From NCBI GenBank assembly GCA_964503955.1, contig CAZDCG010000001.1, positions 109,804 through 173,803 of the forward strand: a stretch of DNA of 64,000 nucleotides, written 5' to 3'. The position numbers were made by a program, and so were the translations under genes. Under the pieces are notes generated by a model. It saw nothing but the letters and a program-made list of their open reading frames with translations. It did not search any database and had not been told where the DNA came from. Shown piece by piece: positions 954 to 59,372 of the stretch (position 1 is the first letter of the stretch; each line of letters begins with the position of its first letter). Origin of the DNA: an uncultured Gammaproteobacteria bacterium. Its GTDB lineage: Bacteria; Patescibacteriota; Patescibacteriia; VMEV01; CAYQCH01.

Positions 954-1781
954 GTGGATCATAAGACGTATCTGTCGCAGCTGCGTCGTCTTCCTATCAC
1001 CAATCCGGCCAGCGAGGACCTGACTCTTGTCTGTCCTCATCTCCCTCCTGATCAGGCCGTCGAGTCGTTCAACGAGCGAGGATTGATCGCATGCCCTCCC
1101 GTAAGGGTTTCCAATGTCGTTCAGGTGGTCGCCCTGCGGCCAGCTGAAGAGATGTTCCGGGACGAGTACAAGGACAACCAGAGAATCCGGGTCAGCGAAG
1201 GCATCATCCCTCCGAGGCTCGAGATCGCCTTCGTGTCCACCATGAACCTGCTGCTCCCCCACGCGGAGGAGGCCAGCCGATACGCGAAATCATGCTGGCC
1301 GGACCAGCTCGTACCGTCCGGCCCGAGGGGATCAACAATCCGCATCCGGATCGATGACCCAGCTGAGATGAACGAGTGGGGTCTGCCAAAGACGGTAAGA
1401 ACCGTCTTTCTCGCGCTGAACAGAAGCGTTGAGGAACTTACACAGCTAAAGACCCAGCCGCTTAGCGGGCTGGTGAACAGCGCGATCAATGGCATGACCG
1501 TCTGCGAGATCATTGGCAGTGAGTATGCCAAGGATCGCAAGACGCTTTTTGCCAGCAACTGCGCTCGCTGTGGTTCGGGGCTGCACGCGGATAGCTGCCT
1601 CGGCTGCAAGCGAACGTTTGCGCGCTGCCCCGGCAAGCCGGACTGGAACATGCCTCTGCCCCAGAAGGTTTGCGATCTGCTGGCAAGACTGGGCCATGTG
1701 TTCGAGGTGAACCCGCAGATCGCGCATGCAAAGGAGATCGAGAACTTCGAGCAATCCAGGCTCGTCCATATCCGGCTCTAA
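954..1781 (+). CDS. Hypothetical Cys-rich protein, 275 aa (GTG start), in GC-rich islet
   Basis: GTG start preceded by gaGAAGGGAAtatctgaGTG. The C-terminus has CxxC...CxxC...C spacing (CARCGSGLHADSCLGCKRTFARC). It is followed by a strong hairpin terminator. Overlapping ORFs in other frames are treated as GC artefacts. Confidence 0.45.
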   Translation: MDHKTYLSQLRRLPITNPASEDLTLVCPHLPPDQAVESFNERGLIACPPVRVSNVVQVVALRPAEEMFRDEYKDNQRIRVSEGIIPPRLEIAFVSTMNLLLPHAEEASRYAKSCWPDQLVPSGPRGSTIRIRIDDPAEMNEWGLPKTVRTVFLALNRSVEELTQLKTQPLSGLVNSAINGMTVCEIIGSEYAKDRKTLFASNCARCGSGLHADSCLGCKRTFARCPGKPDWNMPLPQKVCDLLARLGHVFEVNPQIAHAKEIENFEQSRLVHIRL

Positions 1782-8928: not shown

Positions 8929-10143
8929 TCATCGAAATTGATGCGGTTCCTTAAATCCCCCGATTTTGGTTTTCAAGCGTGTTTTTAGTACAACGGCTCT
9001 TCTAACCGTTTGTTCTCCATAACGGTCATTGAGGATATCTTGCGCACGCACAAGACGGTCGCGCCGGCGCTCCTCTTCAAGAATCGGAAGCTGCTTTCCA
9101 CCTTTCTTCAACAAAGTTGTTCCAACTCCAACCAGGCGCACAGCTCGATTGATTGTCCATCGTTCTAGCATGGCCTGCGCGATGCAATAAACATCGTAGC
9201 CGTCGTCAATAAACCGCTTTAGTGTTTTTCCCTCATGCGAACCGGAAAAATCATCCCAGCGCAAATAGACCCACACATGGCGTGCCTGGTAGCCATCGCG
9301 GCGGAGACGGCGGCCGACTTTCTCAGCCAGACGCAGCAAGATACGATAAACTTCGTCGCGGTCGTAGGTGTCTTTTTCAAGCGTATAGGTATGCCCGATG
9401 GATTTTGCCTCTTCGCTTTCATTCACGTAAGGAATTTCGCTATGGTCGATTCCCCTGCCCATTTCCGAAAGCATAAGCCCGTTATTTGGACCAAAGACTC
9501 TTTGCAATTCCTGCACAGGATAATCGCCAAGCTGGCGCAAGGTACGGATTCCCATATCAAATAAACGCACCTGCAAACGACGGCCAATACCGGGAATATC
9601 GGTCAATTCCACCCAGTCAAGCACTTCTCGGACCTGGGCGGGGGGAATCATAGTGAGCCCGTCCGGCTTTTGCATGCTTGAAGCTAGCTTGGCCAGCATG
9701 CGGTTTGGCGCGATCCCAACAGAACAAGTGAGGTAATCTCCGACTTCGCGGTGCAGATCCGATTTGAGTTTTCTTGCCACAAGACAAGCTTGCGCGTAGG
9801 TTTTCACCCAACCGGTCAGATCCATAAACAACTCATCGATGCTGTACACTTCGATCCGGTCGGTAAAGCGTTTCCCAATATCGATGAATTTTTGCGTAAG
9901 CTCCTGATACTTAACCGGATCTCCGTCAATGAACATGAGGTGCGGGCAGAGCCTGAGCGCCTCAGAGGTAGGCATGGCTGTTTTTACGCCGAATGCTTTC
10001 GCCTCCTTTGAAGCGGCTACAATAACACTTCGTGATCCAGGCGATCCGCCAATTGCGATGGCTTTTCCGCGCAAAAAAGGATTGCACTGCTGCTCAGCAG
10101 TTGCAAAGTAAGAATTGAAGTCGATGTGGAGAATGATGCTCAT
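8929..10143 (-). CDS. dinB: DNA polymerase IV (Y-family)
   Basis: MSIILHIDFNSYFATAEQQCNPFLRGKAIAIGGS... the IMS/UmuC N-terminus, with palm, fingers and little-finger domains. Confidence 0.9.
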   Translation of the reverse strand: MSIILHIDFNSYFATAEQQCNPFLRGKAIAIGGSPGSRSVIVAASKEAKAFGVKTAMPTSEALRLCPHLMFIDGDPVKYQELTQKFIDIGKRFTDRIEVYSIDELFMDLTGWVKTYAQACLVARKLKSDLHREVGDYLTCSVGIAPNRMLAKLASSMQKPDGLTMIPPAQVREVLDWVELTDIPGIGRRLQVRLFDMGIRTLRQLGDYPVQELQRVFGPNNGLMLSEMGRGIDHSEIPYVNESEEAKSIGHTYTLEKDTYDRDEVYRILLRLAEKVGRRLRRDGYQARHVWVYLRWDDFSGSHEGKTLKRFIDDGYDVYCIAQAMLERWTINRAVRLVGVGTTLLKKGGKQLPILEEERRRDRLVRAQDILNDRYGEQTVRRAVVLKTRLKTKIGGFKEPHQFR

Positions 10144-10256
10144 TCACTACGAATTACAAATGGCTACAAATCTACAAATGAACAGCTACTCAATTTACAG
10201 ATTTGTAATGATTCGTCATTTGTAGTGTTTTCAAGGATTGACCCAATGAATAAAAG
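10144..10256. promoter_or_regulatory. Divergent dinB / islet-ORF control region carrying two copies of an ATTTGTAA-N(0-3)-(G)ATTCGT motif (candidate SOS operator)
   Basis: 10148-10161 is tacgaattacaaat (the motif on the minus strand, 5 bp from the dinB start). 10201-10222 is atttgtaatgattcgtcatttg. Equivalent motifs sit upstream of lexA and tatD. Confidence 0.5.
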
Positions 10257-10315
10257 ATGCTATTTATAAGTGTCGGTTTATCGTTAGAACCTACAACAAA
10301 GAGAAGGGAACTAAC

Positions 10316-11111
10316 CGTGTCCGACAAGAGGCTCCGTGGGCTTGAGCGTCGGTGGAAGGAAAGCGGCAGTATCGAGGATGAGGTTAAACTGCTACAGGAA
10401 CGTGTAAGAATGGGGGATCTCACCCAAGAGCGACTCAGGCTGGCGTCCTATTGCGGCCACCCTGCGTCCCTTGCTGCCCTAAACATGATTGGACCCACCT
10501 CCCCTGATTCTCTCGAAACGCTGGAGGAGTGGTTTAGAGGGCTTGAGGCCTGGGGAATCGAATCCCACTTAAGAGGCAGCCTAGCTGTTACAAAGCTCGT
10601 GTTGCCCTACTTTGAGAGAAGCACCCCGGAAGATCTCCGCCCCCGACAAGCTATCCAGTCTGCTATAGATTGGATCGCCTGTCCGTGTGAAGAGCATGTA
10701 GAGAAGACAAATTCAGCATCCGGAAGGCTGATGAATGATGATTTCTGCGATAGCTGGATTGGCGCCCCACCCCGCTCCAGGCCAGTCGGCATGCAACCTG
10801 GCGAACTGATGCTGATGGCGATATCGGTCAACTGGGAAAACAACATTCCACAAGAGGTCGCTTGTATCGTTTGGGATGTCTCTTATAGCTTTTGTGATGA
10901 CGAGAATCCGCTTGAACGGGTCATCCAAGCCATTAGAAACACACTTCAACTGCTGAACAGGATCAGCAACGAGACCCAAACGGACGCATCATGCAATGTA
11001 CCCATGATTCATGACTCCATCACGCAAGTCCTGACCCCCTGGGCCCTGGGATATCGGGATCCGGTTTTCGAACCAGACTTCCTTCCTCCCCTGCCAAGAG
11101 AAGGGACCTAG
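10316..11111 (+). CDS. Hypothetical protein, about 265 aa (GTG start; alternative ATG at 10257), in GC-rich SOS-linked islet
   Basis: aaGAGAAGGGAActaaccGTG RBS and GTG are analogous to ORF 954. There is no recognisable domain. It contains IDWIACPCEEH and FCDSWIG cysteine pairs. Its stop codon lies inside a 32-bp hairpin repeat. Confidence 0.45.
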
Positions 11112-11132
11112 CCGCGAGGCGATGGTCCCTTC
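11100..11132. repeat. 32-bp perfect hairpin GAAGGGACC-tagccgcgaggcgat-GGTCCCTTC, copy 1
   Basis: A 9-bp stem and 15-nt loop overlapping the stop of ORF 10316..11111. A near-identical copy (one loop substitution) is at 11523..11556. Confidence 0.6.
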
Positions 11133-11201
11133 CCGACACGAAGCATCAAAGCTGTTTGATGTCTCGTGTCGGACAACGAACAGAGAAAAGGAAGGTAAAT
11201 C

Positions 11202-11513
11202 GTGACAAAAGAACCCGAATTCCACGAAGGACGCCTTGTCCTTGACTTCGATCACTTCTGCCTGGGGCACACCCCTGAACCGCCGGGTTGCTGCCTCAAC
11301 AGCTTTCGGGGTGAAAGGGACGTAGACAAGGTCCTTGGCGTGAAGCAGGAGAACGAGCGGCTTGGACAAGAACTCAAGGCCAAGTACCGTGATTACGAGG
11401 GGACGCTGTTTGACGTGATCATCCGCCCTCATCTCGATGAGCGGACCGGATCAATCCGTTACGCCGTCTATTACGAACACAAGGAGGATAAGCCTGATGT
11501 GGATGATGAGTGA
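11202..11513 (+). CDS. Hypothetical protein, 103 aa (GTG start), flanked by the two 32-bp hairpin repeats
   Basis: aaGGAAGGtaaatcGTG start. The sequence MTKEPEFHEGRLVLDFDHFCLGHTPEPPGCCLNSF... has no recognisable family. It is GC-rich. Confidence 0.4.
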   Translation: MTKEPEFHEGRLVLDFDHFCLGHTPEPPGCCLNSFRGERDVDKVLGVKQENERLGQELKAKYRDYEGTLFDVIIRPHLDERTGSIRYAVYYEHKEDKPDVDDE

Positions 11514-11522
11514 CCCCCTTGC

Positions 11523-11556
11523 GAAGGGACCTAGCCGCAAGGCGATGGTCCCTTTC
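11523..11556. repeat. 32-bp hairpin repeat, copy 2 (GAAGGGACC-tagccgcaaggcgat-GGTCCCTTT), followed by a T-rich tract
   Basis: It lies between convergent ORFs 11202..11513 and 11558..11806 and is a likely bidirectional terminator. Confidence 0.55.
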
Positions 11557-11557
11557 T

Positions 11558-11806
11558 TCATTCCTGATAATGTTCAACAAGCAGCCACGTCAGGGTTTCC
11601 GTGTGGAATTCAATTCGGAAAAATTCTGTTTCCGTTGCCAAGGAAAAAAAGAAAATGCGTTCACGGCCGTCAAAGGTAGAATGCACATTGGTCACTTTTG
11701 CAATCGTGTAGGTATGCGCTCCCCACTTGAAGGCCTTTGGCTGAACACGCTCTCCATCAAACACGGCCAGCACCTTCACAGGATCGTGATAATGTTCGTG
11801 AAGCAT
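11558..11806 (-). CDS. Hypothetical protein, 82 aa
   Basis: ORF MLHEHYHDPVKVLAVFDGERVQPKAFKWGAHTYTIAKV... is convergent with the islet genes. There is no family assignment. Confidence 0.35.
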   Translation of the reverse strand: MLHEHYHDPVKVLAVFDGERVQPKAFKWGAHTYTIAKVTNVHSTFDGRERIFFFSLATETEFFRIEFHTETLTWLLVEHYQE

Positions 11807-12417
11807 AATTATTCAACAAAAAACACCCAATAATCCTCGACGAAAATTGGATGTTTTTTGTTTTACCTGTCGGAAAAGCAGGGTACAGATCTAAACGAGA
11901 AAAGAACACACTTTGAAGGGAAAGGAATTCCACTGGTTCTTAAAAGAACCTTATTCGCCCGGGAAGGGCGAGCCGGCATAACCAGACGACACTGTATTCC
12001 ATACCCATGCACCGATGTGACCGGATATGAGAATCAATAAATGTCTTTGGATATCATCTCATCTTAGCCGTCCCCGCATAAGAAAAGACGATGTTTTTAC
12101 GCCAGCACAGAGCAATTTTGATGTGAAGGATCTGTAACCCTGCCCTGCCGGCAGGAAGCAGGAATTAGTGCGACAGAGCGTAGACCATGACGCGATCAAG
12201 CATACGTCCCATTACACGACGATAGAGCGACTTTCTTTTTCTTCGTGACATATTTGTTTTTGCGCCCGCAGAGGCAAGGAAGCATCATTTCCACGCCGCA
12301 CAGTCGTATGACTCTAGTGCTGGCGGGTCACCCCCTATTTTGTGAAATAAGGATGGCGAAATCAGGACCTGCTTACCTCTGACAGGCTTTTTATTTAATA
12401 AGAGTTAATAAGTTGTG

Positions 12418-13038
12418 TTAGATACCCAGCGGAGAAAATGTACGGATCAGTCCTTTGACCACGCCTTGGATAATCGGATCTTTGACGTAAATAGGCTGCA
12501 TGGTGGAATTGGCTGGCTGTAAACGGATTTTGTTCTGTTCCCGGTAAAATCGTTTCAATGTGGCGTAGGTATTATCAAGCAGGGCAACAACAATATCTCC
12601 GTTTCGAGGACTTGGATTGCGCTGGACGATGACATAATCGCCGTCAAGAATTCCGTCTTCAATCATGGACTCTCCTTTCACCTTCAGGACATACGAATTC
12701 GCAGGATCGTCAACCAGAGTAATTGGCACACCAATTGTTTCTCTGGTTTCAACCGCTTCAATAGGTGAACCGGCAGTAATCAAACCGACAAGAGGAAGAG
12801 TAACCGCCTGAGGAGCAGGAAGACATTTCGCTGTTAATTCGATAGAACGAGCTTCATTGCTGGTTGTGATATACCCTTTCTCTTCAAGCGCCTTCATGTA
12901 CTGATGGATGCTGGCTGGTGAAGAAAGATCAAAAGCGTCAGCGATTTCTCGATAAGACGGCATATAGCCGTAGTCTGCAGAGAACTGCATGAGAAAGTCG
13001 AGAATCTGCTTTTGCTTTTTGGTTAAACTTTCGTTCAT
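12418..13038 (-). CDS. lexA: SOS transcriptional repressor LexA
   Basis: N-terminal winged HTH (LTKKQKQILDFLMQFSADYGYMPSYREIADAF) and C-terminal S24 peptidase with the GESM serine and the Lys in TLKRF. Confidence 0.9.
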   Translation of the reverse strand: MNESLTKKQKQILDFLMQFSADYGYMPSYREIADAFDLSSPASIHQYMKALEEKGYITTSNEARSIELTAKCLPAPQAVTLPLVGLITAGSPIEAVETRETIGVPITLVDDPANSYVLKVKGESMIEDGILDGDYVIVQRNPSPRNGDIVVALLDNTYATLKRFYREQNKIRLQPANSTMQPIYVKDPIIQGVVKGLIRTFSPLGI

Positions 13039-13185
13039 ATGAGAAGTTGTAAATGATGGTGGGTACGAATTACGAATTTACAAATTTCTTTTTAGTATCT
13101 TTTCGTTTAATAAGAAGCTTGTCTTATTTGTAAATTTGTATCAGATTTGTAATTTGCACCTTCTGCGATTCGTGATGTTTGTATT
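13039..13185. promoter_or_regulatory. lexA upstream region with a candidate promoter and repeated ATTTGTAA / ATTCGT motifs (candidate LexA autoregulatory operator)
   Basis: 13064-13087 is tacgaattacgaatttacaaattt (the motif on the gene strand, 26 bp from the start). 13145-13153 is atttgtaat and 13167-13181 is gattcgtgatgtttg. ATTTGTA is repeated several times between 13125 and 13153. Confidence 0.5.
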
Positions 13186-13361
13186 GTATACGAACAAAAC
13201 ACGAACGTCAAGTGTTGCCATAATTAGCTAAAATCGGAGATTTGTTCATATCTTGTTCGCTTTATCCACAGGTTAAGATCTTTTCCTTTTAAGGGCCAAG
13301 AGAGGTACGGCAAATCTGGCCATCGAGAACTCCCCCAAGAACATCTATCCTTTATCCAAAT

Positions 13362-13422
13362 CCTTCTCCCCCCTCTTTTCTAGAGGGGGTGGAGGAACAA
13401 ACTCCTTCCCCCTAGAAAAGGG
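13362..13422. repeat. Pair of inverted CCCCTCTTTTCTAGAGGGGG / CCTTCCCCCTAGAAAAGGGG elements
   Basis: A related copy, gcttttctagggggaagaag, is at 21161..21182 in the divergent sufB promoter region. Confidence 0.4.
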
Positions 13423-13539
13423 GACTGAATAAAGCGTGGAGTAAGAGAAAACATAGCAAGGGGGTTCTTGCGAACGTCCATACCCGTCGTCTGAAAATCT
13501 GTGCGTCTTAAACGTCTAACAAGTTTGTGCGTCTATAAA

Positions 13540-13575
13540 ACAAAACGCCCTGGTTTTTGCCAAGGGCGTTTTTCA
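13540..13575. terminator. Bidirectional rho-independent terminator AAAACGCCCT-ggtttttgcca-AGGGCGTTTTT
   Basis: A perfect 8-bp stem flanked by an A-run and a T-run, immediately 3' of the DUF378 gene. Confidence 0.7.
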
Positions 13576-13588
13576 TAGGTGTTTTGTG

Positions 13589-13852
13589 TTACATCTGCTG
13601 CCCCATGCTCTCTTCTTTCTTTTCCGGACCGCAGCAGCTTGCCATGCACTTCTTACATTTGCAGCCGAAAATAGACAGGATACCAGCCAAACCAACGAGA
13701 ACGTAGACAACACGTTCTACAGCCGGCCAGGAACCGAGCAGCCACATAACGGCGTTAAATTCGAAGGCTCCAACAAGCCCCCAGTTGAGCGCACCAATGA
13801 TTACCAACGTCATGGCAATCATATGAACCGTGCATCCTTTTCTCATCATCAT
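13589..13852 (-). CDS. DUF378-family small membrane protein with Cys-rich C-terminal tail
   Basis: VIIGALNWGLVGAFEFNAVMWLLGSWPAVERVVYVLVGLAGI matches the DUF378 hallmark. The C-terminus is CKCKKCMASCC. The start may be an internal Met. Confidence 0.6.
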   Translation of the reverse strand: MMMRKGCTVHMIAMTLVIIGALNWGLVGAFEFNAVMWLLGSWPAVERVVYVLVGLAGILSIFGCKCKKCMASCCGPEKKEESMGQQM

Positions 13853-14021
13853 AGGATTGAAAATGAATTTAATAGTAAAAGGATTCTTCCCTAAGTATAG
13901 AGGAAATCCAGGAGCGAGGGCAATAAATTTGTCAATAATTGTGTTAAACGTCAGCGAGCCGGCAGAACAGACAGACCTGTTGGGTCTGAACGTCCTGCCG
14001 GCTCGGCATGGAACTTGTGCC

Positions 14022-15650
14022 CTACTGCATGTAGGGCGTGAACTTGTCGAGCCAGGGATTGGCTCCGAAGTTCACACGCACCCACATCCCCTCATTACCA
14101 CCGTTGGAACCGTACCAGACGGACTGGTTGATGTCCTGTGGGTAAACCCAGTTGGACCTGTTCGTGGTTCCGTCATGGAACCCGACCCACTGAAACACGG
14201 GGATGTTGAAACTGCCCGTGTACTCGACTAGGTGCAGCCCCCACATGTCACCGAACTCATCGGGGAACACCTTCATTGTGGACGTACTGCCTGGGCTGTT
14301 GTACAGGGTGTACGGTGCCCCGGCCCAGGTAGGCTTGCTGATATCCAGCTGGTTCGTGCCGTTGCGGATGCAGTACCGCAGAGCCACGAGGACGGGCACG
14401 ACTCGCTTGCCCGTAGCCGCATCGAGGTAAGGTTCGCCCAGCCGCGTATGCGTATCCACGAACATCCGGGTGGTCCCATTGTCCGTGAATTCGCTCTGCA
14501 GCGGGTTGCCCATCACCACACGTCCCTGGAAGTCCACCGAGTTGCCGTTGTAGGTGGCCACCACGGTGAACGGACCTTCGATGCTAGCCGCCTTGTTCTC
14601 CGGAACCACGAGACGCCACAGCTGCCCGGCTTGGTTATTCACGAGCAGAACCCGATCCGTTCCGCTGGTGATCTGCAGGCTCAGATTGCCGTTGGCCGTG
14701 ACCTCGGTGAAGTCCGTGCCGTTGTAGGCCCAGACCCGGATCTCGCTCCACTCGCCCGGGCTCATGAACGCCCGCATCGAGATGAAGAGGGCGTTGGCCG
14801 GCGGGTCGTCCCCAGTCGAGGCGATCGACACGTCCGAAGACATGGTCACCCCGTTGGGCCGCTCATTGGTGTCGGTGAGGCCGATGATCATCGGTCCGGG
14901 AGCCCAGGCGCGGATGTTGGTCGAGATGTTCTTGTCACGGAACATCACGCGACCGATGGCATCGACCACAACCTTGCCGTCCTCGAACATCTGCCGATCG
15001 GCAACCAGGAAGCGGATCAGGTTCACGTCATTCGTGTTCCCGCCCGTCGCCAGGTTGATCGACCGGTCGAGCTGGTTGGACCAGACACCGACATCCACGT
15101 TGCCGCCGCTATTGGTCAGCGTGATCGATGTGGCCAACTGGTTGCTCGCGTACTTGTTCCCTCCCGTCTGACCGGGATTGGATCCGGACGGAGGAGGAGG
15201 CGGAGGTGTGCCCACGACTTCGATGGCGTCGGCGAAGGTCTTCGTCACGGTCGCGCCGTTCTTGGTCGCCTGCACCGTCAGGTCGGACTTGCCCGTATTC
15301 CCGGTATTCGCCGAGAACAGGCCGTTCTGAGTGATGGAACCGATACCCGTATTGACGAGCGTGTAGACCACCTCGCTGGCCTCGAAGGTGACGAACGTGC
15401 CGTCCTTGAGCTTACCACGCGCGTTGATCTGCTGCTGGTTGCCCTTCACCACCACGGTGTTGGCCACCACGAGCTCGACGGAGTCGAGAGGGCTCTTGCT
15501 GCCCGTATTGGTGTTGTTGCTCCCCGAGTTGTTCGGGGGCGTCATGGGCTGCAGATCGCCCTTGCGGCGCTTGGAGCAGCCGGCGACGAGCATGCCCGCC
15601 ATCAACAGGATCGCGGCACTCACCACGAGGTTGAATCTGAAGAACTGCAT
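14022..15650 (-). CDS. Surface lipoprotein with Big_2-like Ig domain, poly-Pro linker and large C-terminal domain (GC-rich, likely acquired)
   Basis: ATG at 15650 with a GGAGGG SD 6 nt upstream. Signal peptide plus lipobox LVAGC. PPPPPP linker. The ORF-track N-terminal extension to 15854 is rejected. The 538-aa antisense ORF is rejected. Confidence 0.6.
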   Translation of the reverse strand: MQFFRFNLVVSAAILLMAGMLVAGCSKRRKGDLQPMTPPNNSGSNNTNTGSKSPLDSVELVVANTVVVKGNQQQINARGKLKDGTFVTFEASEVVYTLVNTGIGSITQNGLFSANTGNTGKSDLTVQATKNGATVTKTFADAIEVVGTPPPPPPSGSNPGQTGGNKYASNQLATSITLTNSGGNVDVGVWSNQLDRSINLATGGNTNDVNLIRFLVADRQMFEDGKVVVDAIGRVMFRDKNISTNIRAWAPGPMIIGLTDTNERPNGVTMSSDVSIASTGDDPPANALFISMRAFMSPGEWSEIRVWAYNGTDFTEVTANGNLSLQITSGTDRVLLVNNQAGQLWRLVVPENKAASIEGPFTVVATYNGNSVDFQGRVVMGNPLQSEFTDNGTTRMFVDTHTRLGEPYLDAATGKRVVPVLVALRYCIRNGTNQLDISKPTWAGAPYTLYNSPGSTSTMKVFPDEFGDMWGLHLVEYTGSFNIPVFQWVGFHDGTTNRSNWVYPQDINQSVWYGSNGGNEGMWVRVNFGANPWLDKFTPYMQ

Positions 15651-15814
15651 ACATCCCTCCTGGAAGCGGGCCGAACGAAAAATCCCCCGGCCGGACCGGC
15701 CGAAAGGATTTCCCCTGAGATATCCATACCACCCTCTGCCCCACAAATGGCAAAGCTGATGGATGGAACATGGCAAATTAGCAAAAAAGAGAGATTTTGT
15801 CAAGAGACTAAAAA

Positions 15815-15846
15815 TGTCGGGCGCGGGGCTCTGTCCCCGCCCGACT
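15815..15846. repeat. GC-rich hairpin repeat copy 2 (TGTCGGGCGCGGGGCTCTGTCCCCGCCCGAC)
   Basis: Read on the minus strand it is followed by ATTTTT, so it is the likely intrinsic terminator of the malic-enzyme gene. The family is also at 2856 and 57776. Confidence 0.6.
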
Positions 15847-15896
15847 GATCGCAAACAGAGCCTGCGACCGACACTATTTTAATGTTTGGAGCCAGT

Positions 15897-26143: not shown

Positions 26144-27013
26144 GTGCCACTGGAGGACATCGTGCATGAGATCACCCTTATCGGGGAAGCCGGCGGCATG
26201 CGTAATGCATTTGCTTCCGGCCTTAAAAATGGATTTATCCAAAAAGGGCTGCACCCTGACATGATCAGCCGCGCCTATGGCTGCTCATCGGCAGTTCCGC
26301 AGCTCGCCTACTTCCTTACCGGCGATTGCGCGCAGACGCGCCGGATCTGGCTGAGGCTTACGGATCGAGCGCTTCTCAATCCGCGGCGAGTTTTCAGCGC
26401 CAAGCACGTGGGCGATATTGACCGGCTGGTCGACCATCACTGCGCGACCCTGAAGATACCCAAGCTTGACGAGGTGCGCCTCTTCGCCGTCCTGGCACAT
26501 CACAAATCCGCCGAGCCGCATTACCTGCGCGTGACCAGCACGAACGCACGCGAGGTACTGAAAGCGGGCTGCGTGGTCCCCACGCTTGGCCGTCCAATCT
26601 ATGTCAGCGGAGAACGCTACATTGACGGAGGGGTTCTAGACCCGCTCCCCGTCATTCACGCTTATAAAGAGGGCGCGCGCAGGATCATCGTTATCAGCAA
26701 CCGGCCGGCAGGCTATGCGCCTCGAGGAGCCATAAGAGAGCTGATCCTTCCCTGGCTGCTGTTTTGCAACCACCCAAAGCTGCTTGCGCGCTTCTCCCGC
26801 CTTTGGGAACACTACAATCAAACCATCGAGTTCATGAAGCGGCCTCCAGCCGATCTCGACCTGCTTGTGATACGGCCCGACCACCCGCTTCCACCCATGC
26901 TCACACGCAATCCGCGGCTCGTCCGCCAGGCCTACAACGCAGGCCGGCAGATCGCAAGCCGAGAATGGCCGAGAGTGGAGCAATTCCTCTCGCCGAAAAA
27001 GAGCCCCGCCTGA
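26144..27013 (+). CDS. Patatin-like phospholipase family protein (GC-rich, about 60%)
   Basis: Oxyanion-hole-like LIGEAGGMRNAFASG, nucleophile elbow YGCSSA (G-x-S-x-A instead of G-x-S-x-G) and the DGG motif IDGGVLDPLPV. Confidence 0.6.
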   Translation: MPLEDIVHEITLIGEAGGMRNAFASGLKNGFIQKGLHPDMISRAYGCSSAVPQLAYFLTGDCAQTRRIWLRLTDRALLNPRRVFSAKHVGDIDRLVDHHCATLKIPKLDEVRLFAVLAHHKSAEPHYLRVTSTNAREVLKAGCVVPTLGRPIYVSGERYIDGGVLDPLPVIHAYKEGARRIIVISNRPAGYAPRGAIRELILPWLLFCNHPKLLARFSRLWEHYNQTIEFMKRPPADLDLLVIRPDHPLPPMLTRNPRLVRQAYNAGRQIASREWPRVEQFLSPKKSPA

Positions 27014-38119: not shown

Positions 38120-40681
38120 TTACAGATTTTCAAATGGCGACGGTCTTTTCGCCCCCTGCTTTGCCGCATGCACGCGGTCTAAAATTTCCTGTTCAACTTC
38201 CAAGCGGGACCGGCCGTATTTAAGACGCGATAATTCCGCCATGGCATTCTTAATGGCAAAACCATGCCCCTCTTCCCAGGCAGCGCTCTTCATGGAAAAT
38301 GGCCTGAGCGTCTGATTATTCACCAGCAATTTCACGTAGAACGAGAATTGCTCCATATTCAGCAAATCATATTCGTTAAAGACAGGCGCCAATTCTTTTG
38401 CAAAAATCTCCGCGTCTTCCACGCCGACTTTGCTGACTACCATTGTTCCGACATTTCCAAAAACCGCGTCTTTGATTTCTGAATCCCCCCCCTCAACAAG
38501 CTGGCCAACATATTGATGAGCAATGACCAGATTAAGCAAATACTTGCGTGCCTCTGAAAGAATGATGGCAATACTGTCGGTCGTAAAGTTTTGGAATTCA
38601 TCGATATACAAGTAAAAATCCTTTCGCTGCGATTTGGGTTGATCCGTGCGGCTCAAGGCCGCCATGAGAATTTTACCCACAATCACCATGCCAAGCAGAT
38701 GCGCGTTCAGCTCACCAATCTTTCCTTTGGACAGCTTTACCAACAAAATCTTTTGCTGGTCCATGAGTTCGCGGAAATTAAAGGCGCTCTTCTGCTGGCC
38801 GATAATCGGGCGCATAACATCGTTTGAGACGAATTGCGTCAGCTTGCTGGTGATATAGGGCACCATATTGGCCAGCGCCGCTTCCCCGCCCGCTTTTTCA
38901 GCTTCATTACGCCAGAAATCCACCACCACCTGGTTGCGGCATTTGGAAAGTTTATATGCCCTGAATTGTTCGTCTGAAAGCACGCGGGAAATCTCCATCA
39001 AGGTCGATCCGGATTCAGGATCATCCATGATCAGCAGCATGGCATTACGCATATACTGCTCAAACATCGGACCGCCCGTTGATTTCAGGTCGTATAGCTT
39101 GTCAAAGATTTTGAGCATTTCATTAATCACGAACGTTTTCTGCTCAGGGTATTTGGGATCATAATCAAGCAAATTCATGCCAAGCGGATACTCAATATCG
39201 GCAGGATCAAAAATCACCACGTCTTCCACGCGATGTTTGGGGATCCCCCCCAGCACATCGTCGATAAGGTCTCCATGCGGATCAATCACGCAAACGCCTT
39301 CGCCGGCCTCGATGTCGCGCCTTGCCATTGAGGTAATGAAGTATGTTTTCCCCGCCCCGGATTTACCAATCACGTACATGTGGCGGCGGCGGTCTTCACG
39401 CAGCATATGCACGGCCGTCTTTTTTCCTCGATATTCGTTATAGCCAAGCAATATCCCTTCCTGCGGCACATTAAGCGAAACAGGCGCGCGCTTTGCTTCA
39501 AGCCATTGGATATTCGTTGTTTCCGTTTGCGGCAAAGGGAAATGATAGAGGCTGGCCAGCTCCTCCGTATTAAAGATCATTTTATTTTTCGGATTGAAAT
39601 TGCGAAAAATAAAATCTTCGATCAGACGCTTCTGATTCTTTGGCTTGCGCTGACGGAAACTATTGCCGTATTCATAAATATTGTACTGGGCAAAAGCACC
39701 TGTGATCGAATCCAAATAGGCCTGCGCTTGAAAAGACTGGCCGGCGGAAACAACCACGCGGATATTCGCTTCAACGCCTCCCTTGCTGGCTTTTGTTTCG
39801 AGCCGTTTGATCATTTCCTCTTCAAGCGGTGAAAGCTGATACGGCTGATCATCTTTTTTGCCGGATGAAAACATGCTTGAAATAAAGCCGGAAAATCCGC
39901 CGGAAACCGCTTTTTTCGCTTCTTTCAAAGGCTTGCCTTGCCGCATGGCAGACGCAATTTTTCTCCCCCACTGATGCCATTGCCTTGGAGCGGAACGAAC
40001 AATGATTTGAATCGCCGCGCCGTCAAGCCCCTGGATTTGCGACAAAGGATGCGTGAGCGCGTTTAATGGATCCGATTCAAGCTCCTGATACGTTTTTATC
40101 GGGAAATACGGCTCGCGCTCAAAGGTGAGCGATGTCCCCATGGCATATCCCTGCGGATGAAAGATATTGTAATCTTCCGCTTCCTCGATATGCGCCTGCG
40201 GCCACTGCGCCTGAATCTGCTGCTCAATAAACTTATGCAGATATTGCGGCGCGGCCACATAGAAGGAAACGCGCTCATTGTGAACGACAATTTCAAACGA
40301 AATGGTATCTTCGCGGCCAAAGAACCAGGCTTTCAATCCGCTTTGCGGTTTCAGTCCGCCAATCGCGCTGAAAAATGTTTCCGCCACCGAAATGGATTCG
40401 CGCACGCCTTGCTGCGAATCCTGGGATTTCGCCTCCCCTTCCTGCTTAAGGCTTTCTTTTGGCACGAGAATCTGTAAAACCCGTTTTTCGTACTGAGCCG
40501 GCAAAGACCTTCCTTTGCGGGCAAGCGATCTAAGGACGAGGAGAACGATGATGCCAAACGCAACAAGGAGCGCGATGAGCAGAATAAGCAATACCGTGGG
40601 ATCACGGAAAAATTGCTCGGCATTTGCCTGCGAAGCCTGTGTATTGACCGACACAGGCAATTGGAAGAGAAACGAGAACAT
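38120..40681 (-). CDS. TraD/VirD4-like (type IV coupling protein / DUF87 AAA-like) membrane ATPase, 853 aa
   Basis: Two N-terminal TM helices, Walker A GKSGAGKT, Walker B YLYIDEFQNF and IAHQ motif. The family-level call is tentative. Confidence 0.5.
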   Translation of the reverse strand: MFSFLFQLPVSVNTQASQANAEQFFRDPTVLLILLIALLVAFGIIVLLVLRSLARKGRSLPAQYEKRVLQILVPKESLKQEGEAKSQDSQQGVRESISVAETFFSAIGGLKPQSGLKAWFFGREDTISFEIVVHNERVSFYVAAPQYLHKFIEQQIQAQWPQAHIEEAEDYNIFHPQGYAMGTSLTFEREPYFPIKTYQELESDPLNALTHPLSQIQGLDGAAIQIIVRSAPRQWHQWGRKIASAMRQGKPLKEAKKAVSGGFSGFISSMFSSGKKDDQPYQLSPLEEEMIKRLETKASKGGVEANIRVVVSAGQSFQAQAYLDSITGAFAQYNIYEYGNSFRQRKPKNQKRLIEDFIFRNFNPKNKMIFNTEELASLYHFPLPQTETTNIQWLEAKRAPVSLNVPQEGILLGYNEYRGKKTAVHMLREDRRRHMYVIGKSGAGKTYFITSMARRDIEAGEGVCVIDPHGDLIDDVLGGIPKHRVEDVVIFDPADIEYPLGMNLLDYDPKYPEQKTFVINEMLKIFDKLYDLKSTGGPMFEQYMRNAMLLIMDDPESGSTLMEISRVLSDEQFRAYKLSKCRNQVVVDFWRNEAEKAGGEAALANMVPYITSKLTQFVSNDVMRPIIGQQKSAFNFRELMDQQKILLVKLSKGKIGELNAHLLGMVIVGKILMAALSRTDQPKSQRKDFYLYIDEFQNFTTDSIAIILSEARKYLLNLVIAHQYVGQLVEGGDSEIKDAVFGNVGTMVVSKVGVEDAEIFAKELAPVFNEYDLLNMEQFSFYVKLLVNNQTLRPFSMKSAAWEEGHGFAIKNAMAELSRLKYGRSRLEVEQEILDRVHAAKQGAKRPSPFENL

Positions 40682-58447: not shown

Positions 58448-59293
58448 TTACCTCGCGTCATCTTTGATTCCAAAAAAAGCGAGTGCGTTTTGGAATGTCT
58501 GCTCGGCAACATGTTCCTCTGAAAGCCCTTTTCTTCTGGCAATATCCTGTACGATGTATTTCACATGAGCCGGCTCATTACGTTTACCACGAAACGGCGG
58601 AGGTGTTAAGTACGGTGCATCCGTTTCAACGAGCATCTGCTCTAATGGAAGTTTGGCCGCCACCTGTCCTACTGCGTCGGCAAAAACGGCAATGCCTGAA
58701 AATGAAATATACCAGCCAATGTCAATGTATTTTTTCGCCTCCTCGTAGGTTCCCGTAAAGCAATGGATAACACCCCGCTTCCCTTCTCCCCATTGCTGTG
58801 CGGCTTCCTGAATAGCCGCAAACTGATCGTCATGCGCTTCACGGCAATGAATAATCAGCGGCAAGGTGTTTTTGCGGGCGAATTCCGCCTGCGCCATGAA
58901 TGCGGCATACTGCGTCTGTTTCATGGTCTTCGCATCACCTTCGGGCAGGCGGTAATAATCAAGCCCGCATTCGCCAACAGCCACGACTTTGGATGAAGCA
59001 TCTTTAAGAGATTGATAGTAGGCAGGATCAAAGGCTTCCGCTCTGGGTTTGAAGTCAAGCTCCTGCGTATCATTAAAGCCATGCGCGATGGTATGCGTGG
59101 GATGCAGTCCGATGGACGCATAAACACCTTTTTCAAACTTCTCGGCCGTCTCAATTGCCGTTTTGCTTGTGTCCCGCTGAGTGCCAACCGTTACCATCCA
59201 GACTTCGTCAGCCAAGGCACGCTCAATCACCTCCCGAGCATCATCTTCATAAGCTTTGAAATGAACATGAGCATGACTATCAAATAATCTCAT
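58448..59293 (-). CDS. tatD: TatD-family metal-dependent DNase
   Basis: MRLFDSHAHVHF..., GLHP and DAPY motifs of the TatD TIM-barrel hydrolases. Confidence 0.85.
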   Translation of the reverse strand: MRLFDSHAHVHFKAYEDDAREVIERALADEVWMVTVGTQRDTSKTAIETAEKFEKGVYASIGLHPTHTIAHGFNDTQELDFKPRAEAFDPAYYQSLKDASSKVVAVGECGLDYYRLPEGDAKTMKQTQYAAFMAQAEFARKNTLPLIIHCREAHDDQFAAIQEAAQQWGEGKRGVIHCFTGTYEEAKKYIDIGWYISFSGIAVFADAVGQVAAKLPLEQMLVETDAPYLTPPPFRGKRNEPAHVKYIVQDIARRKGLSEEHVAEQTFQNALAFFGIKDDAR

Positions 59294-59316: not shown

Positions 59317-59341
59317 CAAATGACGAATCCGTTACAAATCT
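59317..59341 (-). promoter_or_regulatory. Third locus carrying the ATTTGTAA-N-GATTCGTCATTTG motif (upstream of tatD)
   Basis: Gene-strand reading is agATTTGTAAcgGATTCGTCATTTGcagg. It is almost identical to the dinB distal site agATTTGTAAtGATTCGTCATTTGtag. Confidence 0.5.
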
Positions 59342-59372
59342 ATAAAAGACTGAATATGGAATTTGTAGTGAG

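What the first reader, a model, noticed from the sequence alone, without database searches (positions are those of the whole stretch)
10257..11560. GC-rich two-gene islet wedged between dinB and lexA, divergent from dinB and sharing its putative SOS operator
Seen in sequence: ORFs 10316..11111 and 11202..11513 have clearly higher GC than dinB and lexA on either side. Both start with GTG preceded by purine-rich GAGAAGGGAA/AAGGAAGG RBSs, the same pattern as ORF 954 in another islet. Neither has a recognisable domain. The first is transcribed divergently from dinB, from a 113-bp region containing two copies of the ATTTGTAA-GATTCGT motif also present upstream of lexA. The second is bracketed by two copies of a 32-bp perfect hairpin. 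Inference: these are acquired genes that have been placed under the host DNA-damage regulon. This is typical of mutagenesis cassettes, prophage remnants or toxin-like SOS cargo, but these proteins resemble none of the usual suspects (imuAB, umuDC, sulA, yebG).
Basis: partly seen in the sequence, partly recalled or inferred. Interest (0 to 1): 0.7.

Follow-up and report, generated by a model that had tools for sequence, protein, structure and literature searches.

The report
Two orphan genes splitting lexA–dinB operon
Two small genes of unknown function were inserted, in two steps, into an ancestral lexA–dinB DNA-damage operon of an uncultured bacterium, but the conserved LexA operator is absent from their promoter, so this is a fairly ordinary gene islet and not a demonstrated SOS cargo.

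Summary
The observation largely holds. orfA (GTG 10317–11111, 264 aa) and orfB (11202–11513, 103 aa) lie on the opposite strand between dinB and lexA. They are moderately GC-rich, have purine-rich RBSs, and each is followed by a copy of a 32-nt hairpin element (31/32 identical, not a perfect hairpin).

Comparative genomics supports insertion. Two relatives (L013, L007) have lexA–small ORF–DUF6504-like–dinB on one strand with no islet. Two others (L006, L008) have orfB alone. Only the window's organism has orfA, which sits on what is orfB's promoter and 5'UTR in L006/L008.

orfB is under purifying selection but is almost unique: two real clusters among 1.84 billion representatives. orfA belongs to a small all-helical family that forms tandem paralog arrays and sometimes neighbours RHS or PT-HINT toxins. 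Its best fold matches are DUF416 and the SsdAI immunity protein, so it is probably an orphan immunity-like protein (weak evidence).

The SOS reading is not supported. The LexA box conserved upstream of lexA in six lineages is GTTC-N7-GTTC, and it is absent from the dinB–orfA spacer.

The parts
8929..10143 (-). dinB (Y-family DNA polymerase IV, 404 aa). It forms the left flank of the islet. In relatives it lies directly downstream of the DUF6504-like gene.
   Evidence: Pfam IMS, IMS_C and IMS_HHH_1. NCBIfam NF002677 scores 279 bits against a cut-off of 256. Orthologues are found in L013, L007, L006 and L008.
10145..10227 (.). Quasi-palindromic module of ATTYGTAR units. Four units point towards dinB (10147–10179, − strand) and abut its ATG. 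A 3–4 unit array points towards orfA (10193–10225, + strand). The roughly 95 nt that hold this module are absent from the orthologous spacer of L006 and L008.
   Evidence: Inverted repeat I1 has 35-nt arms that are 77% complementary. Alignment A8 shows the module as extra sequence. A 29/35-identical copy lies upstream of tatD.
10238..10266 (+). Predicted sigma-70 promoter for orfA. It consists of TTGACC (10238–10243), a 17-nt spacer with TG at 10258–10259, and TATTTA (10261–10266), followed by a 50-nt 5'UTR. It is collinear with the orfB promoter of L008 (TTGACA-17-TATCAT) and of L006.
   Evidence: Read from the sequence and from alignment A8. It falls below the 9/12 threshold of the consensus scan, so it is an inferred promoter and not a called one.
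10317..11111 (+). orfA, 264 aa, all-helical. The N-terminal motif (SDKRLRGLERRWKESGSIEDE…LASYCGHPA), the WIACPCEEH motif and the C-terminal PWALGYRDPV motif are all intact. It is probably an orphan immunity-like protein.
11100..11131 (+). Hairpin element copy 1. It contains orfA's TAG stop codon and is a recent duplicate of copy 2.
   Evidence: It is 31/32 identical to copy 2 and folds at −23.2 kcal/mol with z −4.5.
11133..11172 (+). Second strong hairpin between orfA and orfB. It has no U-tract. Its right arm carries a duplicate of orfA's start (CGTGTCGGACAA).
   Evidence: Inverted repeat I4. It folds at −26.5 kcal/mol with z −6.8.
11166..11198 (+). A 10-codon mini-ORF (VSDNEQRKGR*) that starts like orfA (MSD…). 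It is probably the vestige of a second tandem paralog or of the duplication that accompanied the insertion.
   Evidence: Translation is. An interrupted direct repeat links 10299–10327 to 11096–11114 plus 11167–11176, 26/29 identical (read, families D1 and I9).
11202..11513 (+). orfB, 103 aa. It is a lineage-restricted orphan protein under purifying selection, and its function is unknown.
   Evidence: Three clusters were found in the 5.8-billion-protein search. An exhaustive profile search of 1.84 billion representatives found only the P0016 cluster and P0025 as real relatives. dN/dS between L006 and L008 is 0.27. There is no family or PDB match. The structure model is poor, with pLDDT 44.
11523..11554 (.). 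Hairpin element copy 2, followed by UUUCUUCAUU. It is a likely bidirectional terminator between the convergent orfB and the DUF6504-like gene. It is orthologous to the hairpin after orfB in L008.
   Evidence: It folds at −21.1 kcal/mol on the + strand and −17.6 on the − strand. The L008 sequence is and the alignment is A4.
11558..11806 (-). DUF6504-like gene (82 aa). In relatives it lies immediately upstream of dinB in the same orientation. The islet separates the two genes here.
   Evidence: Pfam DUF6504 at E 8.5e-4, 20 bits against a cut-off of 24.2; 3 of 4 orthologues match.
12418..13038 (-). lexA.
   Evidence: TIGR00498 scores 183.9 bits against a cut-off of 110.95. Pfam LexA_DNA_bind and Peptidase_S24 also match.
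13183..13260 (-). The lexA promoter (TTGACG 13211–13206, TACAAT 13188–13183) with the conserved LexA box GTTCGTGTTTTGTTC (13192–13206, −) in its spacer. A second box, GTTCATATCTTGTTC (13244–13258, +), lies upstream. This motif is absent from the islet's promoter region.
   Evidence: Promoter scan, pattern search, phylogenetic footprint across six lineages and PWM scan.
13064..13158 (.). ATTYGTAR arrays in the lexA 5' leader, in both orientations. This is the 'motif also present upstream of lexA'.
   Evidence: (I6). The arrays are absent from the lexA leaders of L014, L015 and L018.

Best explanation
The segment is a real two-gene insertion of about 1.4 kb (10144–11557). It interrupts an ancestral same-strand unit: lexA – 28-aa small ORF – non-coding leader – DUF6504-like gene – dinB.

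Step 1, the older event, is shared with the L006 and L008 lineages. orfB was inserted antisense between the DUF6504-like gene and dinB. It has its own sigma-70 promoter with an extended −10 and a hairpin terminator facing the DUF6504-like gene.

Step 2 is seen only in the window's organism. orfA was inserted at orfB's translation start, so it now uses orfB's promoter and 5'UTR. orfA comes from a family that elsewhere forms tandem arrays of paralogs with conserved ends and variable middles. The event left a duplicated RBS/start segment, a duplicated hairpin and a vestigial 'MSD…' start in front of orfB.

Inferred functions: orfA is most likely an orphan immunity-type or other protein-binding helical protein of the DUF416/Imm5-like kind. 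orfB is a conserved orphan of unknown role.

Regulation: the insertion, with its terminator hairpin, uncouples dinB from the LexA-controlled lexA promoter. The islet's own promoter region has no LexA box. It carries lineage-specific ATTYGTAR arrays that are also present in the lexA leader and upstream of tatD. Their binding factor is unknown.

Shown: the gene orders, the repeats, the motif statistics, purifying selection on orfB and the absence of the conserved LexA box. Inferred: the order of events, promoter usage, the immunity-like role and the terminator function.
For: Gene order:
- L013 has lexA – 655 nt – DUF6504-like – dinB with a 1-nt spacer and no islet. L007 has the same order.
- L006 and L008 have orfB alone, divergent from dinB. 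In L008 the hairpin and the end of the DUF6504-like gene follow it.
- orfA and orfB are the only + strand genes in a − strand run from murB to lexA.

Insertion of orfA at orfB's start:
- The region upstream of orfA aligns with the region upstream of orfB in L006 and L008 (−35, TGn−10, ~50-nt UTR, RBS, CCGTG). About 95 nt of ATTYGTAR module are extra.
- Hairpin copies 1 and 2 are 31/32 identical. The orthologous L008 hairpin has diverged strongly, so the duplication is recent.

orfB:
- dN/dS is 0.27. pN is 0.25 and pS 0.8 against relatives, similar to the DUF6504-like gene.
- Its GC exceeds that of dinB by 4–7 points in all three genomes while tracking each genome's overall GC.

orfA family:
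- L026 has three overlapping paralogs in tandem. L025 has two plus a frameshifted remnant. L011 has at least five copies or fragments.
- Neighbours include an RHS/YD protein (L009) and a PT-HINT protein (L010).
- Two family members give weak Imm5_like and Imm5 hits.

LexA box:
- Established by footprinting and a PWM scan. The GTTC-N7-GTTC direct repeat is the known LexA motif type of Alphaproteobacteria (PMC4951493).
Against: - DinB identities (window–L013 82%, window–L006 79%, window–L008 79%, L013–L006 83%) do not resolve a clade of orfB carriers. A gain in a common ancestor cannot be told apart from repeated gain, loss or recombination.
- The immunity-like call is weak. Pfam scores are below gathering (17.8 against 25). 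Foldseek against the PDB finds nothing (best E 0.23). The profile search against PDB sequences finds nothing.
- In both toxin-adjacent contexts the homologue is convergent with the toxin gene, not downstream in the same orientation. Three other contexts show no toxin.
- No toxin gene adjoins the islet in the window.
- The orfA promoter is weak by consensus and was not called by the scan.
- ATTYGTAR units resemble the LexA half-site (ATTCGTA against GTTCGTA), so weak LexA binding cannot be excluded.
- All five metagenome copies of the locus are 100% identical, so there is no population-level presence/absence evidence.
Confidence: 0.55

Rival explanations
1. The two acquired genes are SOS cargo. 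LexA binds the ATTTGTAA/ATTCGT repeats shared by the dinB–orfA spacer and the lexA upstream region, so orfA and orfB are induced by DNA damage together with dinB.
For: The motif is strongly clustered at dinB/orfA and lexA, and a 29/35-identical copy precedes a tatD-like DNA exonuclease gene. All three marked units are DNA-repair genes. Units such as ATTCGTA differ from the conserved LexA half-site GTTCGTA by one base.
Against: The element conserved upstream of lexA in six lineages is GTTC-N7-GTTC inside the promoter, and the PWM maximum in the dinB–orfA spacer is 0.2 bits. The arrays are missing from the lexA leaders of L014 (LexA 87% identical), L015 and L018. Unit spacing varies (7, 8, 10 or 11 nt) and orientation flips, which does not fit a fixed LexA dimer site. 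The + array lies upstream of orfA's −35, which is not a typical repressor position.
Confidence: 0.15
2. The ATTYGTAR arrays are the operator of a second, lineage-specific regulator that is not LexA. It could be a ribbon-helix-helix-type protein that binds tandem 7–8-bp repeats, as MetJ and omega do. This regulator would co-control lexA, dinB, tatD and the captured orfA–orfB unit.
For: Arrays of 3–5 units with 7–10-nt periods occur in both orientations at three promoter-proximal sites in 64 kb, all next to DNA-repair genes. Similar arrays flank lexA in L007. The comparison with tandem-repeat operators of RHH repressors rests on general knowledge and was not tested.
Against: No candidate regulator was identified. 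Only two genomes show the arrays. The modules look like insertions, since they are extra sequence relative to L006, L008, L014, L015 and L018, so they could be a small palindromic repeat element with no regulatory role.
Confidence: 0.2
3. orfB, and possibly orfA, is a functional partner of DinB or an SOS effector such as a translesion-synthesis modulator or a cell-division inhibitor. It would be kept next to dinB for that reason.
For: orfB is divergent from dinB in three lineages and is under purifying selection. Genes for SOS division inhibitors often sit next to lexA (general knowledge).
Against: Relatives with near-identical DinB and LexA lack orfB (L013, L007). Shared position is explained by inheritance of a single insertion. 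orfB resembles no UmuD, YolD, SulA, YebG or ImuA family and is unrelated to the DUF6504-like protein. No orfA homologue is ever next to a Y-family polymerase or lexA.
Confidence: 0.08
4. The islet is a miniature cassette array. Each ORF would be followed by a recombination hairpin, so the ORFs would be mobilised by site-specific recombination in an integron-like or att-flanked manner.
For: There are three copies of the left-arm segment GAAGGGAMCTARCCG (10303, 11100, 11523), and both ORFs end in the same hairpin. orfA is bracketed by a 26/29 interrupted direct repeat.
Against: The element is 32 nt, whereas attC sites are 57–141 nt, and it lacks a GTTRRRY core. It has only two copies in 64 kb. 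Copy 2 is orthologous to an ordinary terminator hairpin in L008. No recombinase was seen next to the islet. The repeats are explained more simply by a duplication that accompanied the orfA insertion.
Confidence: 0.05

Closest known systems
Orphan or tandemly arrayed immunity proteins of polymorphic toxin systems (Pfam Imm5 PF14423, Imm5_like PF21805; structurally DUF416 and SsdAI, PDB 7jtu_B)
   Different: Scores are below the Pfam gathering cut-offs, and Foldseek and sequence searches against the PDB are negative. Homologues are convergent with the toxin genes instead of lying downstream of them. The window has no adjacent toxin. The family has its own N-terminal (LERRWKETG…AAYCGH) and C-terminal (PWALGYxDPV) signatures and a CPCxxH motif.
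lexA–dinB operons and lexA-linked mutagenesis cassettes (for example lexA–imuA–imuB–dnaE2, or the lexA–dinB operons described in Geobacter; general knowledge)
   Same: In relatives, lexA is followed on the same strand by a Y-family polymerase gene. The only LexA boxes in the interval are at the lexA promoter.
   Different: Here a small ORF, a long structured leader and a DUF6504-like gene lie between lexA and dinB. In the window's organism two antisense orphan genes and a terminator hairpin break the unit. No imuA, imuB or dnaE2 is present.
Alphaproteobacterial-type LexA operator (GTTC-N7-GTTC direct repeat; PMC4951493)
   Same: The motif conserved in the lexA promoter of the window's organism and five related lineages is GTTC(G/A)T-N5-GTTC(G/A)T.
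   Different: The islet's promoter region lacks this motif.
Tandem-repeat operators of ribbon-helix-helix repressors (MetJ metboxes, omega heptads; general knowledge)
   Same: Both consist of contiguous 7–8-nt units, 3–5 per array, in direct and inverted orientation close to promoters.
   Different: No cognate protein was identified and the unit sequence is unrelated. Regulatory function is untested.

Membership tests
LexA (SOS) regulon member | A LexA box of the clade's type lies in or near the promoter. | tested here: not met
   The conserved box GTTC-N7-GTTC was defined by footprinting six lexA promoters. The PWM scores 27.7 and 23.2 bits at lexA and at most 0.2 bits in 10100–10330. The exact pattern occurs only at 13192, 13244 and 18191.
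LexA (SOS) regulon member | Transcription is induced by DNA damage and depends on RecA and LexA. | not testable with these tools
   This needs mitomycin C or UV transcriptomics, or LexA ChIP or EMSA.
Polymorphic-toxin immunity protein (Imm5 / Imm5_like) | The protein matches the family HMM above the curated cut-off. | tested here: not met
   orfA scores 17.8 bits against Imm5_like (cut-off 25; E 0.0032). One homologue hits Imm5 at E 0.0079.
Polymorphic-toxin immunity protein (Imm5 / Imm5_like) | The fold is similar to that of solved immunity proteins. | tested here: inconclusive
Polymorphic-toxin immunity protein (Imm5 / Imm5_like) | The gene lies next to a toxin gene, usually just downstream on the same strand. 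| tested here: not met
   No toxin gene adjoins the islet in the window. Two of six homologue contexts adjoin RHS or PT-HINT genes, but in convergent orientation. The others do not.
Polymorphic-toxin immunity protein (Imm5 / Imm5_like) | The family occurs as arrays of divergent paralogs (poly-immunity loci). | tested here: met
   This holds for homologues only. L026 has three tandem copies, L025 has two plus a remnant, and L011 has at least five copies or fragments. The window has one copy plus a 10-codon vestige.
Known SOS cargo (UmuD/UmuC, ImuA/ImuB, SulA, YebG, YolD) | The protein is homologous in sequence to the family. | tested here: not met
   orfA and orfB have no Pfam or NCBIfam hit at E ≤ 0.1, apart from the weak Imm5_like hit of orfA.
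Integron gene cassette | An attC site of 57–141 nt with R''/L''/L'/R' cores (GTTRRRY) follows each ORF. | tested here: not met
   The element is 32 nt with no GTTRRRY core.
Integron gene cassette | An intI integrase and attI site lie adjacent. | not tested
   The neighbouring genes are dinB, pgeF, the DUF6504-like gene and lexA. The rest of the window was not screened systematically for recombinases.
Prophage or plasmid remnant | The DNA or its proteins are similar to phage or plasmid records. | tested here: not met
   The 1.4-kb segment has no blastn match in 50,697 phage records. orfA has no tblastn match in 72,556 plasmids. orfA and orfB have no PHROGs hits. orfB has no relative in IMG/VR. 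One distant orfA relative, present in two copies, lies in an IMG/VR contig.
DUF6504 (PF20114), for the 82-aa gene next to the islet | The protein matches the family HMM above the curated cut-off. | tested here: inconclusive
   It scores 20.0 bits against a cut-off of 24.2 (E 8.5e-4), covering profile positions 5–77 of 103. Three of four orthologues match weakly.
Intrinsic terminator (hairpin copy 2) | A GC-rich stem is followed by a U-tract. | tested here: inconclusive
   The stem folds at −21.1 kcal/mol and is followed by UUUCUUCAUU. The consensus scan did not call it because the stem is interrupted. The L008 orthologue has a clear T-run.

The most novel reading that the evidence does not exclude
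The ATTYGTAR arrays are the operator of an undescribed regulator. It would be independent of LexA or auxiliary to it, and it would define a small DNA-damage regulon (lexA, dinB, tatD) in this uncultured lineage. After the islet cut dinB off from the lexA promoter, dinB and the captured immunity-like orfA–orfB unit would have been rewired to this regulator. This would link defence against DNA-targeting interbacterial toxins to a damage response.
Probability: 0.15. Interest if true: 0.65.

Novelty: new member of a known kind. Interest (0 to 1): 0.35.

Why it matters
The locus gives a clean snapshot in three states: no islet, orfB alone, and orfA plus orfB. It shows how orphan genes can invade and split a conserved lexA–dinB damage-response operon, and how a later arrival can take over an earlier one's promoter. 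It also shows that a motif shared with the lexA upstream region is not necessarily the LexA operator. Phylogenetic footprinting pointed to a different box, GTTC-N7-GTTC.

Three things may be worth experiments:
- the ATTYGTAR arrays, whose function is unknown;
- the orfA family, which forms tandem arrays with conserved ends and variable middles;
- the conserved small ORF and structured leader upstream of the DUF6504-like gene and dinB.

None of these is shown here to be a new mechanism.

Tried and rejected
- Family searches for orfA and orfB in Pfam, NCBIfam, PADLOC and PHROGs found nothing above threshold.
- The AlphaFold model of orfB, built from 3 sequences, was unusable (pLDDT 44), so no fold search was run on it.
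- Foldseek of the orfA model against the PDB gave no significant hit. The afdb50 library was unavailable.
- Profile searches against PDB sequences for orfA and orfB gave nothing.
- The exhaustive profile search for orfB added only one new relative, P0025. Its genomic context is not on record.
ORF 954 shares only a similar RBS and has a different downstream hairpin.
- orfB is unrelated to the DUF6504-like protein.
- Rfam found nothing in 9900–14000 at E ≤ 1 except chance hits, and only one tRNA in the whole window.
- The toxin domains of the RHS and PT-HINT neighbours of orfA homologues could not be typed.
- Phage and plasmid searches were negative.
- The literature search for DUF6504 returned no paper. 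The sample accessions gave nothing useful.
- The organism could not be identified. The only related genome record is labelled 'uncultured Gammaproteobacteria', and that label is unverified.
- I first took a stretch at 12160–12190 for a degenerate ATTYGTAR copy. It is the reverse complement of the small ORF's 3' end, so I dropped that idea.
Full report
**1. What is at the coordinates**

The window is chromosomal. On the − strand it carries murB, murC, murG, ftsW, murD, pgeF, dinB, then a DUF6504-like gene, lexA and a DUF378-like gene. The only + strand genes in this run are the two ORFs of the finding.

It ends at 11111 and encodes 264 aa.
- Ten of its 12 homologues start at the same aligned position, with M/V-S/T/G/A-D.
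- The ATG at 10257 that gene callers used (284 aa) lies inside the predicted promoter spacer.
- orfB runs from 11202 to 11513 and encodes 103 aa.

**2. Composition**

- orfA has GC 0.539 and orfB 0.548. dinB has 0.504, lexA 0.452, and the window mean is 0.489 with an sd of 0.035 per kb.
- Among 50 long non-overlapping ORFs, orfA ranks 4th.
- orfA's GC3 (0.449) is below the mean (0.537), so its excess GC sits at codon positions 1 and 2.
- Three other ORFs (954–1781, 14022–15854, 26144–27013) are much more GC-rich.
- 'Clearly higher GC' is therefore true but modest.

**3. Repeats**

- The 32-nt element GAAGGGACCTAGCCGC(G/A)AGGCGATGGTCCCTT occurs twice and nowhere else in the window, even allowing 3 mismatches.
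- It folds as a 9-bp stem, an internal loop, a 3-bp stem and a tetraloop (−23.2 and −21.1 kcal/mol). It is not a perfect hairpin.
- Copy 2 is followed by a U-rich tail. It sits between the convergent orfB and the DUF6504-like gene.
- Copy 2 corresponds to a hairpin with a clear T-run after orfB in L008, so it is probably a bidirectional terminator.
- Copy 1 contains orfA's stop codon. A second strong hairpin follows it (11133–11172, −26.5 kcal/mol) with no U-tract.
- orfA is bracketed by an interrupted direct repeat. AAGAGAAGGGAACTAACCG|TGTCCGACAA (10299–10327) matches 11096–11114 plus 11167–11176 at 26 of 29 positions.
- The right-hand copy opens a 10-codon mini-ORF, VSDNEQRKGR*, that begins like orfA.

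**4. Comparative genomics of the interval**

- L013 (DinB 82% identical over the first 136 aa) has the lexA 3' end, 655 nt, the DUF6504-like gene and dinB. The last two are separated by one base (TAGtATG).
- L007 (a MAG, DinB 71% identical) has lexA, a gap, the DUF6504-like gene, dinB, pgeF and murD on one strand. There is no orfA or orfB. A different insert of GC-rich hairpins lies at the DUF6504|dinB junction.
- L006 and L008 (orfB 63–64% identical to the window's) have orfB directly divergent from dinB and no orfA. In L008, orfB is followed by the hairpin and by the 3' end of the DUF6504-like gene.
- This gives three states: no islet, orfB alone, and orfA plus orfB.
- DinB identities do not resolve which lineages are closest. 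The polarity (insertion, not loss) rests on two points: the translational coupling in L013, and the fact that the islet is the only antisense block in the run.

**5. How orfA was added**

- The sequence upstream of orfA aligns with the sequence upstream of orfB in L006 and L008. The shared features are −35 TTGACx, a 17-nt spacer ending in TGn, a −10, a 48–52-nt UTR, a purine-rich RBS and CCGTG.
- The window has about 95 extra bases between the dinB ATG and the −35.
- orfA therefore occupies what is orfB's promoter and 5'UTR in L006/L008, and orfB follows behind two hairpins with its own RBS.
- The two hairpin copies are 31/32 identical, while the L008 orthologue has diverged strongly. This makes the duplication, and so the orfA insertion, recent.

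**6. orfB**

- It has three clusters among 5.8 billion proteins.
- An exhaustive profile search of 1.84 billion representatives found only the P0016 cluster and one further protein, P0025 (E 1.6e-27). The other hits are long repetitive proteins.
- It is a real gene. dN/dS is 0.27 between L006 and L008. Against the window, pN is 0.25 and pS about 0.8, like the neighbouring DUF6504-like gene.
- Its GC exceeds that of dinB by 4–7 points in all three genomes while following each genome's overall GC. It is therefore a long-term resident.
- There is no family, PDB or phage match. The structure model is unusable. Its function is unknown.

**7. orfA**

- It has 13 homologues with three conserved motifs:
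  - an N-terminal motif, SDERLRELERRWKETGSVEDEAAYLLERVRVGDLTQERLELAAYCGH;
  - a W-x-x-CPCxxH motif, present in some members;
  - a C-terminal motif, PWALGYxDPV.

  The middle of the protein is variable.
- The model is all-helical, with pLDDT 76 and pTM 0.74.
- Foldseek against the PDB finds nothing, and so does a profile search of PDB sequences.
- Two different members give weak hits to Imm5_like and Imm5, both below the cut-offs.
- Gene contexts vary:
  - convergent with an RHS/YD giant protein (L009);
  - convergent with a PT-HINT protein (L010);
  - downstream of a Ser/Thr kinase (L024);
  - in tandem arrays of paralogs: L026 has three overlapping copies, L025 has two plus a frameshifted remnant, and L011 has at least five copies or fragments.
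- Two distant copies lie in an IMG/VR contig.
- No homologue is next to a Y-family polymerase or lexA.
- Tandem arrays with conserved ends would explain the vestigial 'MSD' start left downstream of orfA.
- My reading is that orfA is an orphan immunity-type or protein-binding helical protein acquired from such an array. I hold this with low to moderate confidence.

**8. Regulation**

- The only consensus sigma-70 promoter in 10050–13400 is the one upstream of lexA (TTGACG-17-TACAAT). GTTCGTGTTTTGTTC lies in its spacer.
- The lexA upstream regions of the window's organism, L007, L014 (LexA 87% identical), L015, L018 and L016/L017 (47%) all keep this promoter and box.
- Where enough upstream sequence is held (all but L015), they also keep a second, inverted copy about 55 nt upstream. 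Four of them (the window, L007, L014, L018) also keep a DnaA-box-like TGTGGATAA.
- A direct-repeat GTTC-N7-GTTC is the LexA motif type described for Alphaproteobacteria (PMC4951493).
- A PWM built from 11 such sites scores 27.7 and 23.2 bits at lexA, and nothing above 10.6 bits elsewhere in the window (within the range of shuffled sequence). It scores 0.2 bits at best in the dinB–orfA spacer, and low in the lexA–DUF6504 interval of the window's organism, L007 and L013.
- The conserved LexA operator is therefore not in the islet's promoter region.
- In relatives, dinB probably depends on transcription coming from the lexA side. The antisense islet with its terminator hairpin interrupts this. 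This last step is inference.

**9.

- ATTYGTAR occurs 15 times in the window, against 6.6 ± 2.6 expected.
  - Six copies lie in 10147–10225.
  - Four lie in 13070–13152.
  - Two lie at 59332 and 59361, upstream of a YchF/TatD-family exonuclease gene.
- The copy upstream of orfA and the copy upstream of tatD are 29/35 identical.
- The units form arrays with 7–11-nt periods, in both orientations.
- Similar arrays flank lexA in L007. None occur in L006, L008, L013, L014, L015 or L018.
- The arrays account for extra sequence relative to those loci.
- They are real and non-random, lineage-specific, and not the conserved LexA box.
- They could be the operator of another factor, degenerate LexA half-sites, or a small palindromic repeat element. 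I cannot decide among these with 64 kb of sequence.

**10. Verdict**

The 'acquired' inference is supported and refined into two steps. The 'under SOS control' inference is not supported. The proteins remain uncharacterised, with a weak immunity-like lead for orfA. This is an ordinary kind of event, an orphan-gene islet in a conserved operon, with some unexplained regulatory sequence. Interest is moderate to low.

Noticed in passing
window 12165–12251 (− strand): A conserved 28-aa basic small ORF (MSRRKRKSLYRRVMGRMLDRVMVYALSH) lies between lexA and the DUF6504-like gene. Orthologues with the same start and similar length occur downstream of lexA in L013, L007 and L015, and partly in L014. It is not annotated by the gene callers. 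Its position resembles that of small SOS effectors next to lexA in other bacteria.
   Followed up: partly
window 11807–12164 (− strand); hairpin at 11815–11862: A conserved non-coding leader lies upstream of the DUF6504-like gene and dinB. It contains a conserved stem-loop, CTTTTCTTAT-TTGGGGACGG-GTAAGAGAAG. It also has a strong hairpin flanked by A and T runs (−23.5 kcal/mol) that ends 8 nt before the DUF6504-like ATG in the window, L013 and L007. The layout looks like an attenuator or riboswitch. There is no Rfam match.
   Followed up: partly
window 13262–13270: A perfect DnaA box, TTATCCACA, lies next to the distal LexA box upstream of lexA. It is conserved as TGTGGATAA in L007, L014 and L018.
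   Followed up: no
window 59318–59372: A third ATTYGTAR module lies directly upstream of a YchF/TatD-family DNA exonuclease gene (58448–59293, −). It is 29/35 identical to the copy upstream of orfA.
   Followed up: partly
L007 5819–6000: This related MAG carries a different insert at the same DUF6504|dinB junction, made of GC-rich REP-like hairpins. The junction may be an insertion hot spot.
   Followed up: no
window 954–1781, 14022–15854, 26144–27013: Three ORFs or regions are much more GC-rich than the finding (0.588, 0.606, 0.600) and have no Pfam or NCBIfam family. The region at 14–15.9 kb has long ORFs on both strands. ORF 954 is unrelated to orfA.
   Followed up: partly
window 38120–40681 and 53016–56015: There is an 853-aa protein with weak TraD/VirD4 coupling-protein matches, which may be a conjugative-element remnant. 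There is also a 999-aa UvrD/PcrA-type helicase with a C-terminal Cas4/PD-(D/E)XK nuclease domain.
   Followed up: no
L026 2–2319; L025 2–1400; L011 3186–9349; L027 3992–7278: The orfA family forms tandem, sometimes overlapping, arrays of paralogs with conserved N- and C-termini and variable middles. The arrays include frameshifted fragments that retain only the 5' motif. This is an uncharacterised diversifying family that may deserve its own study.
   Followed up: partly
window 10257: Public gene calls start orfA at ATG 10257 (284 aa). Homologue N-termini and the RBS support GTG 10317 (264 aa). The ATG lies in the spacer of the predicted promoter.
   Followed up: yes
window 10141–10179: dinB has no Shine-Dalgarno sequence. 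The ATTYGTAR array ends 3 nt before its ATG. dinB in L006 and L008 also lacks one, whereas in L013 dinB is translationally coupled to the DUF6504-like gene. dinB may be translated from a leaderless or very short-leader mRNA after the insertion.
   Followed up: no
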